This document shows, one piece after another, positions 44,642-64,000 of a DNA stretch of 64,000 nucleotides. Source of the DNA: Eledone cirrhosa (lineage: Eukaryota); the NCBI GenBank assembly GCA_964016885.1, contig OZ024741.1, positions 312,418,001 to 312,482,000 on the forward strand, written 5' to 3'. The stretch's first letter is position 1. Each line of letters begins with the position of its first letter. A model generated the notes under the pieces. It searched no databases and had not been told where the DNA came from. It saw only the letters and a list, made by a program, of their open reading frames with translations. Position numbers and translations under genes: made by a program.

Positions 44642-47600
44642 ATATACAGTATTTTCCGTTGTGTTGTAATATAAATATTACACACAGTAGATTATCAGCT
44701 CACGTAGAGTTTGCTCGACGGTTCCAGTTGTAGTTCCAAAAGTAATCCGGAGAAAAATAGAAAGATTTGAATGGATACAGTTTAGTTGAAAGGAATTTAT
44801 TGACACGTGTTTCTATAACAGTTACATAACCTAAAACAGCTGCTATCTACAAACTTTTAGTTATGCAGACATTCAATATTTCAATGTTATTATTTACTGT
44901 CATTTCATCAGAATAATATTACTGAGGACCTATTTAGTTTTTATAGAGAATATTAGGAGGGAGGGGTGAAGTTGTTAGAAGAATAGTTGAAGGAGTGGTT
45001 TTTCGATAGCAGTGAGAATTCTTGGTGGCAGTGAGTAATTAGATTCCCATCTGTTGTTTTGACATTTTTTATAGAATATATTATTGGTTATTTTTCTAAA
45101 TCTATAGAAGGATTAGAGATAGTAAAGATATGCGTGGTTGGTTTTGTGTTTGCACTTAATTAACATTCAGACTTAAATTTTTCTTTCAAGTGTACGTATC
45201 CTTTCACCCACGCATTCATACACACATATATTTGCACACCTCTACAAAATACATATACTCACAATTCACATATTCATACTTACATATATATATACACATG
45301 CATACACATATATATACACACATGTATTCATGTACATACATACGCGCGCATGTGTATACATTTTCATACTCAACTTATCTTTATATACACACGTATAGAC
45401 ATACACATATATACATACATACTCTAGTCCATGTGTACACACATACACATACATACACATCTATATACACATACATACATACACAGACACACATATATAT
45501 ATATATATATATATACATATATATATATATATATATATATATATATATATATATATATATATATATATATATATATATATATATATATATATAAGCACTT
45601 TAATACATGAATACACTTACATCTAACTATACACATCAAACATATATATATATTTACTTATTTATATACATTTTCACATATATATACATACTTATGGACG
45701 TTTTTAGACACATTCATTATCGCATATTTGCACCTATTCTCATCAGCATATCTTTCCATTATTAGTGTGGTAATTTAAGGTTATTAATATATGTTGAGAA
45801 GAGATTGTTTTTATATTTTTCTAACTAGATTAAGGTTTATATAGTTGGGGGATGTCCCTCTTTTATGTAATATTCGGCTTGTAGTAGGAAAAAAGGGTTT
45901 TAGTTCTGTGACGGCAGAATAATGTTCGTTCAATTCTGTTATTCAGCAGTTTCTTCTTGTGTGTGATTATGTAATAAATCTCAAGATTACACAATTTGCA
46001 GAAATGTTGGCTCCTGGAAAAGCTTTGGGTTTTAGCTAATTTTTCCCATTTTAGGGTAAACTTTTGATCGCTATCCCTGAGCGTCCAAGCTTTTTCTGCT
46101 AAAGTTGTTACATTTCTTTGGCTCTGGTGTTTTATTGAGTAAGAATGCCTATACAATCGAGATTTAAACGATGTTGCCGTTGATCCCACGTAATACCACT
46201 CGTTGCCTCCGGATTTAATGGTACACTTATAAATAATATTTTTTTCCAGGCAGTTATTGCCGAGGGGGCAGTTGTCAGGATAGGTGCAGTTACAGTTGTG
46301 TACGTTGGGTTTTCTCTGGAGTAGTATTGCGGACGAACTTAGGTGTGGTTTATTTATGTTCTGTAGTGTATTGTCTACTGTTTTTTTGTGTTCTTTGTAC
46401 TTAAGTTCTTAGTGTTTTCGTTTAACCTTCTAGTATTGATCTTTTTTATGTGTTGTTCAAGGTTTAACGCTGTAGAGTATGACAGTCTTATAGTGGTAGG
46501 GTTTAGGATTTTGTGGTATTTGTGTGATGTGGGAAAATGTCTTTTAATTATTTTAAAGAAGAGTACTGGTAAATTTGTACTAATGGAACTATTGTATTCG
46601 GGGTTATACCATAAGTACTCTTTGCATCGCTTTCTATTAGTTTTGTTTGTTGGTTTACTGGTGTGCATACTATGGTAGTAAGTGTAGTTTGGTGTTGTGT
46701 TATTATATCTACCTATGTGGGATTTATTTTGGGTGTTTTGATTGTTCCCATCTATGTACTCTATTTTGTTGAGGTAGCCTGCTTTACTAAGGGCGTTATC
46801 GTAGTACTCGGCGTGTTCCTTAAATACTTGTATGTTAGAAGATAGACCCGAGATTCTAAGGGAAATATTTTTAGGGATAGATTTAATTATAGAGTTAGAC
46901 CCAACATTTACGTATTTGAGATTTTCATTCAATTTATGAAACGGTTTAATCAAACCAGAGTTTAAATTGAGTGTGACATCCAGGAAGTTAACTACTTTAA
47001 GGTTGTATTCATACGTTATAGTTAGTCCTATTTCGAGTAGTAGTTTTCTTATATCTTTGCGTAGTTTTTCTAGTTTTGGGTTATTAAGGTTTTTAGCTAG
47101 GAGGAGAACATCGTCGCGGTATATTCCGCCGTGGAGATTGCTGAATTTTTCCTGGAGTCTAAAGGCGATAAATAACCCCACAATATCAGTTATTTCCGCC
47201 GAATCGTTAGAGCCCATTGTTATGTCAAAGTTAGAGGGTCTATCTTTACGTACCCAATAACTGTTCTCAAATTTGACTATAGTTTTCCTAGCTTCTAATA
47301 TAATCTTAATTTCATCGTTTGTAAGGTCAGAGTTATCCTTAGCAAACTTAATGGCTCTATTCAAAGTTTCAGGTGATATCGATGAGTAATATTCATCGAT
47401 ATCAAACTGGATAAACTTAGATTTATTCTTATTGCTAATGCTATTAAACCATCTTATTGCTTCTTGGGTCTTCCCCCAGAGTTTAATGTTAACCTTAGCC
47501 TTAATTTGGGGGATGATTCTATCTAAGATATATTTGCTTATTTTACCTATATCTGATTTAGAGGGGCAGATTAATCTAATTTTAGGGTCATTATCAAAGT

Positions 47601-48339
47601 TTACCTTGTGGTCCTTAAGATTGAAGGTGGGTACCGCCGGTAAGAGTGGTCCTGTCCTATCTTCGATTCCGAGATTTTTCACTATTTCGCATGCCTCATC
47701 ATTGATGTGCTTAAGGGTTACTTCACTCGTTTTTCTATATTTTTTATGTAATTCTTTTCGAATGAAGTTGTTGTATGTAGTGCAATCCATAGTGTACAGG
47801 TTTGATGTTTTGTCCGCTTTTACTACAATTCCTTTGGTGTTTTTAAGGTCGTCCAGTAGTTTTTTTATATCTTTCTGTAATTTGCTGTTGGTGTTGCGTC
47901 CTTTGAATTTAATTTTAAGGATTAAGTTCATAAGGTCCTGCTCAAATGCATCTAATAGTGGGTTGGTGGGTGGGTTTTTACAAGTCCCAAAACCGAATTT
48001 GTTGTTTACACCACTTTCCAATGTTGAGTTCATACGGCTTCTATCATAGTGGAGCGTTTTCCACCTGACACGTCGAATGAATTCATTAGTTGTGTATATA
48101 AAGATAAGTTGAGTATGAAAATGTATACACATGAGCGCGTATGCATGTACATGAATACATGTGTGTATATATATGTGTATGCATGTGTATATATATATGT
48201 AAGTATGAATATGTGAATTGTGAGTATATGTATTTTGTAGAGGTGTGCAAATATATGTGTGTATGAATGCGTGGGTGAAAGGATACGTACACTTGAAAGA
48301 AAAATTTAAGTCTGAATGTTAATTAAGTGCAAACACAAA
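44642..48339 (-). mobile_element. Naiad PLE copy 1 (inverted, 5'-truncated) plus 248 bp of forward pLTR
   Basis: Near-identical to the reverse complement of 58102-61441 plus a ~115 bp longer tail. Inversion junction at 48091; 1-bp A-run frameshift at ~46381; hammerhead at 44797-44916. Confidence 0.9.
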
Positions 48340-61441: not shown

Positions 61442-64000
61442 TATATATATATATATATGTGTGTGTGTGTGTGTGTTTTGTGTGTGTGTATGTATGTGTG
61501 TGTCTGTGTGTATGTGCATATGTGTGCATATGTATGTGGGTATGTCTATGTCTATGTATATATATATATATATATATATATATATATACATATACATAGA
61601 CATACCAACATACATATGCACACATATGCACAATAATATTAATATATATATATATATATATATATATATACATATATATATATATATATATATATATATA
61701 TATATATATATATATATATATAAATATATATTAATATTATTGCTCCTTAGGTTGAGCTGAAAGTAGCCTCATATATACGGCTGTTATTTCTAGCAGTACG
61801 GTTATGAGGCTAGCTAGAAACTGTAAACCATGTGCGTTACACAGTCTTTTAAAATATTTGGAAGTGAAGCATATCAATTTATTCCTGGATGTTTACTGAA
61901 GAGAGCAGGACATGATATCCTTACACTTTTTTATCTCGAAACATATTTGGATTTTAAAGTTTAAACTTATCTACGGAACAGGTTTGATTTTGAAATTTAA
62001 ATGTGTCTAAACATCTTGGCCACTTGGCAATACTGTTTGTCTTTGTTGATTTATTATTTTAAATCGATATGGGCAGACTGTAATATTATAATTAGTATAC
62101 TTCATTCTAGCTAACTAAATTTTCTTTTACAATATAAATACAGATATGTTGGTATTTGTGTTTCATCATATATATTAATTTATATTTAAATGTTTTACAC
62201 GGCTCAGAAATATTTCTTTCTTTGAGCTAATTTCATTGTAAAATAATTCATTACACTTAATATATAAATATATATACATAATATGGAAAACCAAGAATCA
62301 GTGAAGCATCGGAACACAAGTTATTACGTATTACAATTGTTTCTCCGGCGAACAGCTTGCGGTGCGATCTGTTTGTGGATCGAACACCAGACTCTGGATT
62401 CGCTAGTTCCTCAGATACGTCCAGTGATTTCGAAGCAAATCCTCTTTTTGCTGGACTCCGACTCTTCGAATTTCTGTCATCTGCCATCATCCTGTTTGCG
62501 CTGCGCTCCGATTGGTTGATAGTTCGGGAGGTCATCTTTGTGTATGACCATTCAAATCTGCCCACTGACGTTTTCCATTCAGGCGTGAGCTATCAGTCAC
62601 CCTCATCCCGTCGCCAGGAATTACTGCTATGTGTAGGTTAGGTGTTATGAACTCTCTTGCCCTTGCTTGGCTAGCCCGTCCCCCTCCACACATAGACCCG
62701 CACCTATACAGATATTTTAAGCCATTAATCGCACACTTAACTGTGCGGACACACACACACACACACATACACACACACACATACACACACACACACATAC
62801 ACACACACATAGAGCTTGCATGTTTGCGTCCACACATGTACATATATATATTCACCTTTCATATATAGGTACATTCATACACATATATACGCACATACGT
62901 ACACATAAGGGACCAGATGTATACATATATCTATCCTTACACAGCCACACATATATATATATATATATATATACACACAGACATATATTTACACATATGT
63001 ATATACATATACATGCATATACGCACCCATAGATACACACACGTACATATACACGCGCGTACCTATGCAGTCAATCATGCCTACTCATACACACACACTT
63101 AGATACATACATATATATATGTGCGTATGCACACGCACGCACACACTCATATATACACACATGTGTTTACATATACATACACACACACACAGTATACACA
63201 CACACACACATATATATATATATATATATATATATATTTATATATACACACGCACTGACACACAGACACCCACCCACACACACACATACTCATACATATG
63301 AAAATAAACTCTATAAAAATATTTGGAAAGTGCATAGAATCACGCATATGCTGCTGTACATTGGGTAGTGCACCAAGAAATATTACGTGAAGAAATACGT
63401 TAAAAAAAAAAAAAGTACATATGTGGAATACGTCAAAGAATGCATGCAACATCTCACATAGCGGTATATACGTATATGCAGACACACTTTGATGCACATA
63501 TTGACTGAGTTGGCATTATGGTGCTAACGTGAAATAATCCACGTACAGAAACCTTATAAACAAAATTACCTATGGGAAGCTCATAGGAACAATGCAAAGG
63601 GTATACCTAAAACATAAATAAAAGTATATAAAAATACACATGAGTTTGTACAGGAATAAAATACATAAAGTGTTACATAATGTCTTACATACGTAAGAAC
63701 ATACACACTCTACATAAAAGATATATATGCATGGAGTGCGCAAGAACAGTATGTAACGGAGTATGTTACTGTGGCTGAAAGTGAGTGCCTTAGTGAAGTG
63801 TGATACGGGATTGAGTATACCCATGGGAATGGAAACGCCGTGCCCTGGCTACTGCGACGGCGTTATTTAAGATAAGATACAGAGTCAAATGTGCACCATT
63901 GAGTGTGTCGACCTGCCCCATAGGGCATACATAGTCATCAAGGTATGGTGTCAGATCACATAGAACCACGCCGCCACCACGATTGACGTCCGCTTCCCCG
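61442..64000 (-). repeat. inverted duplicate of 51337-53880, running off the window edge
   Basis: Mirror ORFs (e.g. 52772-53080 vs 62257-62565; 51513-51767 vs 63570-63824) with scattered substitutions. Confidence 0.92.

What the first reader, a model, noticed from the sequence alone, without database searches (positions are those of the whole stretch)
44642..64000. >12 kb palindrome plus triplicated Naiad: inverted-repeat-driven complex rearrangement
Seen: 51337-57220 and 58102-64000 are near-identical inverted arms around an 881 bp spacer, and the mirror includes flanking DNA beyond the element. Copies 1 and 2 share the identical inversion junction (ATTCATTAGTT|GTGTATATAAAG at 48091 and 57220). 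Copy 2's outer end and flank match copy 3's, whereas copy 1 has a ~115 bp longer tail. Copy 1's forward pLTR breaks off at 48339. Inference: the ancestral locus was L-A(inv)-J-A-R. One homologous template switch between the inverted PLE copies plus one non-homologous jump gives L-A(inv)-J'-R(inv)-A(inv)-J-A-R, analogous to DUP-TRP/INV-DUP rearrangements. PLE 5' inversions would then seed palindromic duplication of host DNA.
Basis: partly seen in the sequence, partly recalled or inferred. Interest (0 to 1): 0.75.

Follow-up and report, generated by a model that had tools for sequence, protein, structure and literature searches.

The report
Penelope insertion mirrors its neighbouring DNA
The assembly holds a 14.6-kb mirror-image stretch centred on a young jumping gene (a Hydra-type Penelope element, not a Naiad) that includes 3.5 kb of neighbouring transposon debris, likely copied when the element's own back-to-back arms folded back during or soon after insertion, a rare accident of a kind already described for human LINE-1.

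Summary
The palindrome is in the assembly. Its arms are 50395-57220 and 58102-64954, 98.5% alike, around an 881-bp spacer. The shared inversion junction occurs only twice in the 3-Gb assembly, both here. The element is Hydra-clade, not Naiad. The mirror stops 954 bp beyond the window, at a (TA)n border, not at the SINE, so 48340-50394 is single-copy. The layout is DUP-NML-INV/DUP plus a deletion, not DUP-TRP/INV-DUP. Sister insertions have one long-tail and one short end (9 of 10); none of 28 stretches has a mirrored flank. So the ancestor was likely a normal head-to-head insertion whose arms primed fold-back copying of the flank. Copy 2 shares no new mutation with copies 1 or 3, which points to an event during or soon after insertion. 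Contigs of one sample weakly support a real duplication; a haplotype join is not excluded. One result goes against my reading: new substitutions fall 12:3 on the presumed original arm. The scan noted similar mirrored flanks on other DNA before (unchecked notes).

The parts
44606..44641 (.). (TA)n target tract at the end of left flank L
44642..48091 (-). Copy 1 (A1) of a Hydra-clade Penelope-like element. It is 5'-truncated, ends in the long 115-bp tail (44642-44756), and has a 1-nt frameshift in a homopolymer near 46387
48092..48339 (+). J': first 248 bp of the forward pLTR, behind the inversion junction (1-nt microhomology). Identical to 57221-57468, including a base at 57273 found in no other sampled copy
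48340..50394 (.). X: single-copy stretch of old repeats. It starts inside a cut SINE (1-nt microhomology with J'), holds a second inverted SINE (50011-50183) and a hammerhead-like core near 49668 (-), and ends in (TA)n 50345-50394. Not mirrored
50395..53077 (+). B, left-arm copy: 5'-truncated fragment of an older Hydra-type family (CxCx5C linker, C-terminal GIY-YIG, 3' tail). Other family copies are at most 87% alike. Carries a 12-bp deletion at a CAT repeat
53078..53880 (-). Z, left-arm copy: one unit of a young ~526-bp repeat that forms tandem arrays elsewhere, plus (TA)n/(CA)n microsatellites
53881..57220 (-). Copy 2 (A2): same 5' junction as copy 1, same short end and flank as copy 3. An 18-bp in-frame deletion removes RDDVLL of the RT catalytic motif
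57221..58101 (+). J, the 881-bp spacer: forward pLTR with the long tail (to 57969), then the 5' end of the ORF. It would be the loop of the palindrome
57983..60331 (+). Open frame of copy 3: 782 aa stop to stop, first Met at aa 13. Motifs RWK 49, DKT 133, YRDD 364, CNCx5C 640, IIY..YVG 659, CKLC 738, CRH 766. No Pfam hit at E<=0.01
58102..61442 (+). Copy 3 (A3), right arm; ends at the short end followed by (TA)n
61443..64000 (-). Right-arm copy of Z and B (strand given is that of B). It continues to L001:954 (64954), where it joins Y, a cut RT fragment of a third Hydra-type family (L001:955-1385), with a 2-nt microhomology (TC)

Best explanation
A young Hydra-clade Penelope-like element sits here three times, at the centre of a 14.6-kb palindrome that includes 3.5 kb of flank, and the palindrome likely arose when the element's own head-to-head arms primed fold-back copying of the flank during or soon after insertion. 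Steps: (1) Shown for the family, inferred for this locus: the element inserted into (TA)n from both cut strands, with a long-tail cDNA from the left flank and a short-end cDNA from the right flank. (2) Inferred: the two cDNA 3' ends met at a 1-nt microhomology and copied each other. The left one copied 248 nt (J') and stalled. The right one copied into the left cDNA and so became complementary to itself. (3) Inferred: that strand snapped back with J as the loop and copied back through copy 3, the short end and about 5.5 kb of flank (Z, B, X). (4) Junction shown, step inferred: it joined the stalled left end inside a SINE (48339|48340). (5) Junction shown, step inferred: on the right arm, the stretch from the (TA)n at B's 5' end through X into Y was lost, which left X single-copy. 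The same product would follow from a break in the spacer and replicative template switching soon after insertion.
For: (a) Family anatomy: one long plus one short end at 9 of 10 loci, the tenth having a long end only. This matches in vitro priming from two sites on both strands (PMC11167929, passages). This locus has one long and two short ends. (b) The junction is unique to the locus, and 4 substitutions are shared only by these three copies. (c) B has exactly two near-identical copies, both here; X and Y have one each. (d) X-(TA)n-B looks like B's native 5' junction, as at L042. B|Y cuts a Y-family ORF that runs on in 3 of 3 relatives, and J'|X cuts a SINE. (e) Copy 2 shares 0 of the 8 new changes of copies 1 and 3. 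Wherever the crossover lay, 3-5 of them sit in its donor stretches; P(no sharing) is 0.06 if the event came halfway through the locus's life and 0.004 if at three quarters. (f) Both left-arm deletions sit at short direct repeats. (g) One sample's contigs: one contig crosses B|Y with 0 differences and begins 30 nt inside B, where a fork is expected; B contigs have depth 14.7-17 against 7.6-10.6 for Y; both arm alleles appear at L001:755. (h) L1 gives inverted duplications of flank by self-annealing at insertion (10.1101/2024.12.14.628481, passages).
Against: (a) New substitutions fall 12 on the right (presumed original) arm and 3 on the left (presumed copy): p=0.035, or p=0.096 with indels, both post hoc. 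The model expects equal numbers or more on the left. (b) J' shares one new base with J (57273), which fits some lag as well as a template variant. (d) The bridging contig has 30 letters on the B side, one short of the tool's 31-letter rule. (e) Contig depth is not copy number, and runs X2-X4 are one sample that may be the assembly's own. (f) The J'|X and X|B junctions were not tested on reads. (g) No unrearranged allele or ortholog was seen.
Confidence: 0.6

Rival explanations
1. Haplotype join or misassembly. One haplotype carries a simple inversion of the block to the right of J', the other carries the plain insertion with X deleted, and the assembler switched between them inside the 3.3-kb element repeat.
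For: The arm difference (15 polarised substitutions in 6.8 kb) is at a level alleles could show. A B:Y depth of about 2:1 also fits one B per haplotype with Y hemizygous. PLE inverted repeats are known to trouble assemblies (PMC8557442, passage).
Against: There is no N in 114 kb. Arms are not identical, which argues against a fold-back read chimera. Copies 1, 2 and 3 each have private changes that long reads would separate. Y's contig depth (7.6-10.6) equals that of 13 listed contigs from other loci (4.6-12.5, median 10.2), while B is at 14.7-17. The X4 contig shows no fork on the Y side. No alternate haplotig was found. Alleles should carry new mutations evenly, not 12:3.
Confidence: 0.15
2. 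The right arm is the new copy. The flank originally ran L-X-(TA)n-B-Z-Y. The endonuclease cut two (TA)n tracts, and an error-prone polymerase copied back through Z and B, stalled at the (TA)n and jumped to Y. Copy 1 plus J' came from a second exchange.
For: It explains the 12:3 excess of new substitutions on the right (7 of 7 in B), the stop exactly at the (TA)n border, and single-copy X without a separate loss of X from the right arm.
Against: It needs both cDNAs primed on the same strand at sites 9 kb apart, against the outward-pointing long/short anatomy at 9 of 10 loci. It needs two copies of the left cDNA to duplicate the junction. The asymmetry is marginal with indels (p=0.096), and in Z the left arm has 2 of 3 new bases.
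Confidence: 0.13
3. Late, insertion-independent rearrangement. Long after insertion, the inverted copies caused a break or fork stall in the spacer, followed by BIR/MMBIR template switches, or an ODIRA-type inverted triplication eroded by deletions.
For: It gives the same final structure. Oppositely oriented LINEs and Alus mediate DUP-NML-INV/DUP in humans (PMC6902434, passages). Palindrome arms erode by secondary deletion (PMC10766186, sections 5 part 1 and 6). J and J' share one new base. An unchecked scan note on another genome (e1-9831711) reads a similar case as two steps.
Against: Copy 2 shares none of the private changes of copies 1 and 3; P=0.06 at half and 0.004 at three quarters of the locus's age.
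Confidence: 0.12

Closest known systems
Hydra clade of C-terminal EN+ Penelope-like elements (Craig et al. 2021, PMC8557442; includes Hydra-1_Obim, 2507 bp, (TA)n, in its File S1)
   Same: RT then GIY-YIG; RWK, DKT, CxCx5C, CxxC and CxH motifs; (TA)n target; inverted 5'-truncated copy; tail on one end only
   Different: The tail is 115 bp rather than 30-40 bp, and the unit (about 3.6 kb) has a clear pLTR. The passages read describe no mirrored flank or duplicated inversion junction. Sequence identity to named Hydra families was not tested.
L1 insertions with inverted duplication or foldback of flank DNA (10.1101/2024.12.14.628481)
   Same: Inverted copy of genomic DNA next to a retrotransposon insertion, microhomology junctions, self-annealed 3' end priming synthesis
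   Different: There the hairpin forms on 2-bp genomic microhomology in somatic or cultured cells. Here the proposed stem is the element's own kilobase inverted arm, the element itself is duplicated, and the product sits in an animal genome assembly.
DUP-NML-INV/DUP rearrangements mediated by oppositely oriented LINEs or Alus (PMC6902434), and eroded inverted triplications (ODIRA, PMC10766186)
   Same: One homologous junction in inverted repeats plus one microhomology junction; two duplicated segments separated by a single-copy one, with one copy inverted
   Different: Kilobase rather than megabase scale. The inverted repeats come from a single insertion and are 0.9 kb apart. An extra deletion removes X from one arm.
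DUP-TRP/INV-DUP
   Same: Inverted-repeat template switch plus a non-homologous junction
   Different: No unique segment is triplicated; the element goes from 2 to 3 copies only because it was already present twice.
Naiad clade PLEs (PMC8557442)
   Same: (TA)n targeting, tandem/inverted insertions, DKG-like motif
   Different: Naiads have an N-terminal GIY-YIG and a CxC linker before the RT; this element has the endonuclease at the C-terminus.

Membership tests
Naiad PLE | N-terminal GIY-YIG before the RT | tested here: not met
   YRDD at aa 364, IIY..YVG at aa 659
Naiad PLE | CX2-5CxxC finger upstream of GIY-YIG | tested here: not met
   No match; the linker is CNCx5C
Hydra PLE | Single ORF, RT then C-terminal GIY-YIG | tested here: met
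   782-aa frame; domains read from motifs, as Pfam gave no hit
Hydra PLE | RWK motif present, GxKF/Y not conserved | tested here: met
   RWK at 49; no GxK[FY] match
Hydra PLE | DKG changed to DKT | tested here: met
   DKT at 133
Hydra PLE | CxCX5C linker; CxxC and CxH around the conserved E and N; CCHH absent | tested here: met
   CNCTYPDNC at 640, CKLC at 738, CRH at 766; only one Cys inside the GIY-YIG core
Hydra PLE | Insertion into (TA)n | tested here: met
   1314 short and 941 long ends abut TA repeats (the patterns required TA, so this is not a fraction); ends also abut TA in loci chosen by ORF
Hydra PLE | Canonical hammerhead ribozyme in the pLTR | tested here: inconclusive
   CTGATGA..GAAA core at 57700 by a recalled motif; no Rfam hammerhead hit at E<=0.1; stems not verified
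Hydra PLE | Placement in the Hydra clade of an RT tree | not tested
DUP-TRP/INV-DUP | Triplicated inverted segment flanked by duplications (1-2-3-2-1) | tested here: not met
   Against the inferred ancestor: J' 2 copies, rest of J 1, A3+Z+B 2 (inverted), X 1
DUP-NML-INV/DUP | Two duplicated segments separated by a single-copy one, with one copy inverted | tested here: met
   J' duplicated, 57469-58101 single, A3-Z-B duplicated in inverted orientation; this depends on the inferred ancestor
DUP-NML-INV/DUP | One junction in oppositely oriented repeats, one by microhomology | tested here: inconclusive
   1-nt microhomology at 48339|48340 shown. The homologous switch in copy 2 cannot be placed because it shares no marker with either donor. 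A third junction (B|Y) is extra
DUP-NML-INV/DUP | Structure shown in cis against a reference allele by spanning reads or copy number | not testable with these tools
   Only contigs of one sample, on one junction

The most novel reading that the evidence does not exclude
The locus is a frozen Penelope insertion intermediate. The duplicated inversion junction with its 248-nt stub records the two cDNA 3' ends copying each other. The 6.8-kb mirror records one of them snapping back and running more than 5 kb into the chromosome. Two-sided priming would then make every head-to-head PLE insertion a potential starter of kilobase palindromic duplications, without any later recombination.
Probability: 0.4. 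Interest if true: 0.62.

Novelty: new variant of a known kind. Interest (0 to 1): 0.38.

Why it matters
How PLEs join their two cDNAs into head-to-head insertions is still open; PMC11167929 calls the later steps unvalidated. A locus where the junction is present twice, once as a stalled stub, gives a base-level prediction that the in vitro system can test: reciprocal extension of the two cDNA ends, then snap-back. With about a thousand such insertions of one family in this genome, even a rate below 3% would make PLEs a source of palindromic duplications. Against that, only transposon debris was copied here, the event is rare, equivalent outcomes are published for L1, and the structure still lacks spanning-read proof.

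Tried and rejected
(1) Independent insertions of a master element that already carried the inversion junction: rejected, 2 matches genome-wide, and sister loci each have their own junction. (2) 3' transduction of B from a donor elsewhere: rejected, no third near-identical B (40 of 787 candidates scored). (3) X as a templated insertion from elsewhere: no near-identical source (40 candidates scored each). (4) X, Z and Y as parts of one element, which would fix the ancestral order: suggested by L027 and L028, but rejected, because the matches are separate small insertions. (5) A second mirrored-flank example: the close end pairs at L043/44 and L047 are direct tandem duplications, L045/46 and L048/49 are separate insertions, and the L058 inverted repeat is another Hydra family's own arms. 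(6) A family-wide mutation excess on one arm type: none evident, private substitutions range from 0 to 8 per kb. (7) Pfam found nothing on the Hydra ORFs; Rfam gave only sub-threshold microsatellite matches to miRNA models. (8) Run X1 (another organism, share 0.07) laid only 2 short pieces and is no ortholog evidence. (10) A genome-wide screen for short-short fold-backs could not be run, so the rate rests on the first 100 listed ends of each type, read by eye.
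Full report
1. Observation. Self-BLAST of the window gives inverted arms 58102-64000 and 57220-51337 (5924 columns, 98.6%), a direct repeat 53881-57468 / 44757-48339 (98.8%) and an inverted repeat 58102-61442 / 48091-44757 (99.6%). The window is G000:C2:312418001-312482000 in a 3.0-Gb assembly. With the next 50 kb attached (no N), the mirror ends at 64954, which pairs with 50395. The palindrome is therefore 14,560 bp, with arms of 6826 and 6853 bp and an 881-bp spacer. 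The stretch 48340-50394 (X) has no mirror and no near-identical copy elsewhere (only the best 40 candidates were scored each time, and the other hits are SINE pieces and old repeats).

2. The element. Copy 3 has a 782-aa open frame with RWK (49), DKT (133), YRDD (364), CNCx5C (640), a GIY-YIG-type core (659), CKLC and CRH, and no CX2-5CxxC or GxKF/Y. Craig et al. (PMC8557442; passages, section 11 and supplement rows seen) define Naiads by an N-terminal endonuclease and list exactly these motifs for the Hydra clade. So this is a Hydra-type PLE. No tree was built. That the host is a cephalopod is my recall from the SINE and was not tested. Copy 1 is 5'-truncated and frameshifted; copy 2 is 5'-truncated and lacks RDDVLL. 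The family is young and abundant: about 40 full-length hits at 98-99%, and 1314 exact short ends and 941 exact long ends next to TA repeats.

3. What a normal insertion looks like. At 10 loci chosen from the ORF search, 9 show arms pointing outwards, one ending at the long tail and one 115 bp earlier; the tenth has a long end only. Each has its own inversion junction, and none has a mirrored flank. A further 18 stretches, chosen as close end pairs or short ends without a listed long mate, show no mirrored flank either. Among the first 100 listed short ends and first 100 long ends (all on C1, read by eye), no two ends of the same type point away from each other within 20 kb; this locus has such a pair 7.6 kb apart. 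A one-sided tail and priming on both strands from two RNA sites are published (PMC11167929 and PMC3846280, passages). This locus has one long and two short ends. Its junction occurs twice in the assembly, both here, and its three copies share 4 substitutions seen in none of the other copies among 42 aligned pieces.

4. The flank and the junctions. The mirrored 3.5 kb is Z plus B plus microsatellites. Z is one unit of a young 526-bp repeat. B is a 5'-truncated fragment of an older Hydra-type family; 2 of 52 hits are near-identical, both here, and the rest are at most 87%. B relatives run on upstream of the mirror end in 7 of 8 loci fetched; the eighth is truncated next to (TA)n (output partly cut). 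X-(TA)n-B therefore looks like B's own old junction. On the right, B joins Y, an RT fragment of a third family whose ORF runs on in 3 of 3 relatives, with a TC microhomology; I read this as a new junction. J'|X cuts a SINE with a 1-nt microhomology. Against the inferred ancestor the copy numbers are J' 2, rest of J 1, A3-Z-B 2 (inverted) and X 1. That is DUP-NML-INV/DUP (PMC6902434, passages) plus a deletion, not DUP-TRP/INV-DUP (PMC10766186, abstract, section 5 part 1 and section 6).

5. Timing and direction. Polarised against other family copies, copy 1 has 2 substitutions and 1 indel of its own, copy 2 has 1 and 1, and copy 3 has 4 and 1. Copy 2 shares none of these with either donor. Wherever its crossover lay, 3-5 donor changes should be available to it; the chance of sharing none is 0.30, 0.06 or 0.004 if the event came at 25, 50 or 75% of the locus's age. 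J' does share one new base with J. Together this favours an event during or soon after insertion, modestly. One result goes against my reading: over the arms, new substitutions are 12 on the right and 3 on the left (p=0.035), or 13 and 5 with indels (p=0.096) (post hoc). I dropped one ambiguous site (63197) and six microsatellite sites before counting. The two left-arm deletions (18 and 12 bp) sit at short direct repeats, as slippage during repair synthesis would give. The asymmetry stays unexplained and supports the rival in which the right arm is the copy.

6. Is it real? Runs X2-X4 are contigs of one sample, possibly the assembly's own; they hold 0.71-0.74 of the words of X plus B. On L001:1-2800, one X4 contig (925-1156, 0 differences) crosses B|Y and begins 30 letters inside B. 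That is one letter short of the tool's bridging rule, and it is where a fork between two continuations of B would start a contig. B contigs have depth 14.7-17, the Y contig 7.6-10.6, and 13 listed contigs from other loci 4.6-12.5 (median 10.2). At place 755, X2 and X3 show only the left-arm base and X4 retains the right-arm base. This is weak support for a real duplication; contig depth is not copy number. The two left-hand junctions were not tested on reads. I leave 15% for a haplotype join.

7. Mechanism. Best (0.6): two-sided priming; reciprocal copying of the two cDNA ends, with J' as the stalled product; snap-back of the right-hand strand with J as loop; copying through copy 3, Z, B and X; end-joining to the stalled left end; and loss of X from the right arm at the (TA)n tract. 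An early break in the spacer with template switching gives the same product and is included. The junctions are shown; every step between them is inferred. Rivals: haplotype join (0.15), right arm as the copy (0.13), late rearrangement (0.12). Before reading the scan's notes I favoured a post-insertion event. The notes gave the lead to an insertion-coupled reading, which I then tested only through the timing argument at this locus.

8. Novelty. The insertion anatomy is known. Inverted duplication of flank at L1 insertions is reported (10.1101/2024.12.14.628481, passages), and so is inverted-repeat-driven DUP-NML-INV/DUP. Penelope has been linked to rearrangement breakpoints at the cytological level (PMC3681739, passages). 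I found no paper describing a PLE that mirrors its flank or duplicates its inversion junction (searches; open-access library only; bioRxiv supplements not seen). PMC13282606 (passages) added nothing. Unchecked scan notes report mirrored flanks at other PLE insertions in this genome and in another. Verdict: new variant of a known kind, interest 0.38.

Noticed in passing
window 57855-57969; loci L007-L026, L043-L062: This family's one-sided tail is 115 bp, three to four times the 30-40 bp described for PLEs, and both ends are base-exact across copies (1314 and 941 exact matches).
   Followed up: partly
window 50395-64954 (to L001:954): New substitutions fall 12:3 on the right arm (7 of 7 in B) with no strand-coordinated spectrum, while both microhomology deletions are on the left arm. 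Unexplained.
   Followed up: partly
window 12865-15172 (-): A further Hydra-type relative, 60-63% identical in protein to copy 3, with a frameshift near 14470.
   Followed up: no
window 20131-24600 and 28163-30070: Another inverted-arm composite (arms 94-98% alike) around a 797-codon frame at 21163-23556, with a 68%-alike relative on the other strand; no Pfam hit.
   Followed up: no
window 39340-41072: Tandem and inverted array of a ~430-bp unit between (TA)n tracts.
   Followed up: no
window 53078-53605 and 61731-62263; L065-L076: Z belongs to a young 526-bp family that forms tandem and inverted arrays in (TA)n, retrozyme-like in layout.
   Followed up: partly
window near 49668 (-): Hammerhead-like core CTGATGA..GAAA with a neat stem II inside X; related small inserts lie in L027 and L037.
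   Followed up: no
L043-L044 and L047: Recent direct tandem duplications (6.9-kb and 2.1-kb units) that carry a stub of the same element.
   Followed up: partly
L058:3681-6994: Head-to-head composite of another Hydra-type family whose right arm is replaced by a short-end stub of this family, joined at a 5-nt microhomology.
   Followed up: partly
L003-L005 (extended coordinates 92451-110302): Cluster of ~3-kb repeats in direct and inverted orientation at 92-94% identity, 28-46 kb beyond the window.
   Followed up: no
window 57983-60331, 12951-15211, 50902-51381: Pfam gives no hit at E<=0.01 on these Hydra-type ORFs, so a Pfam-only annotation would miss them.
   Followed up: no
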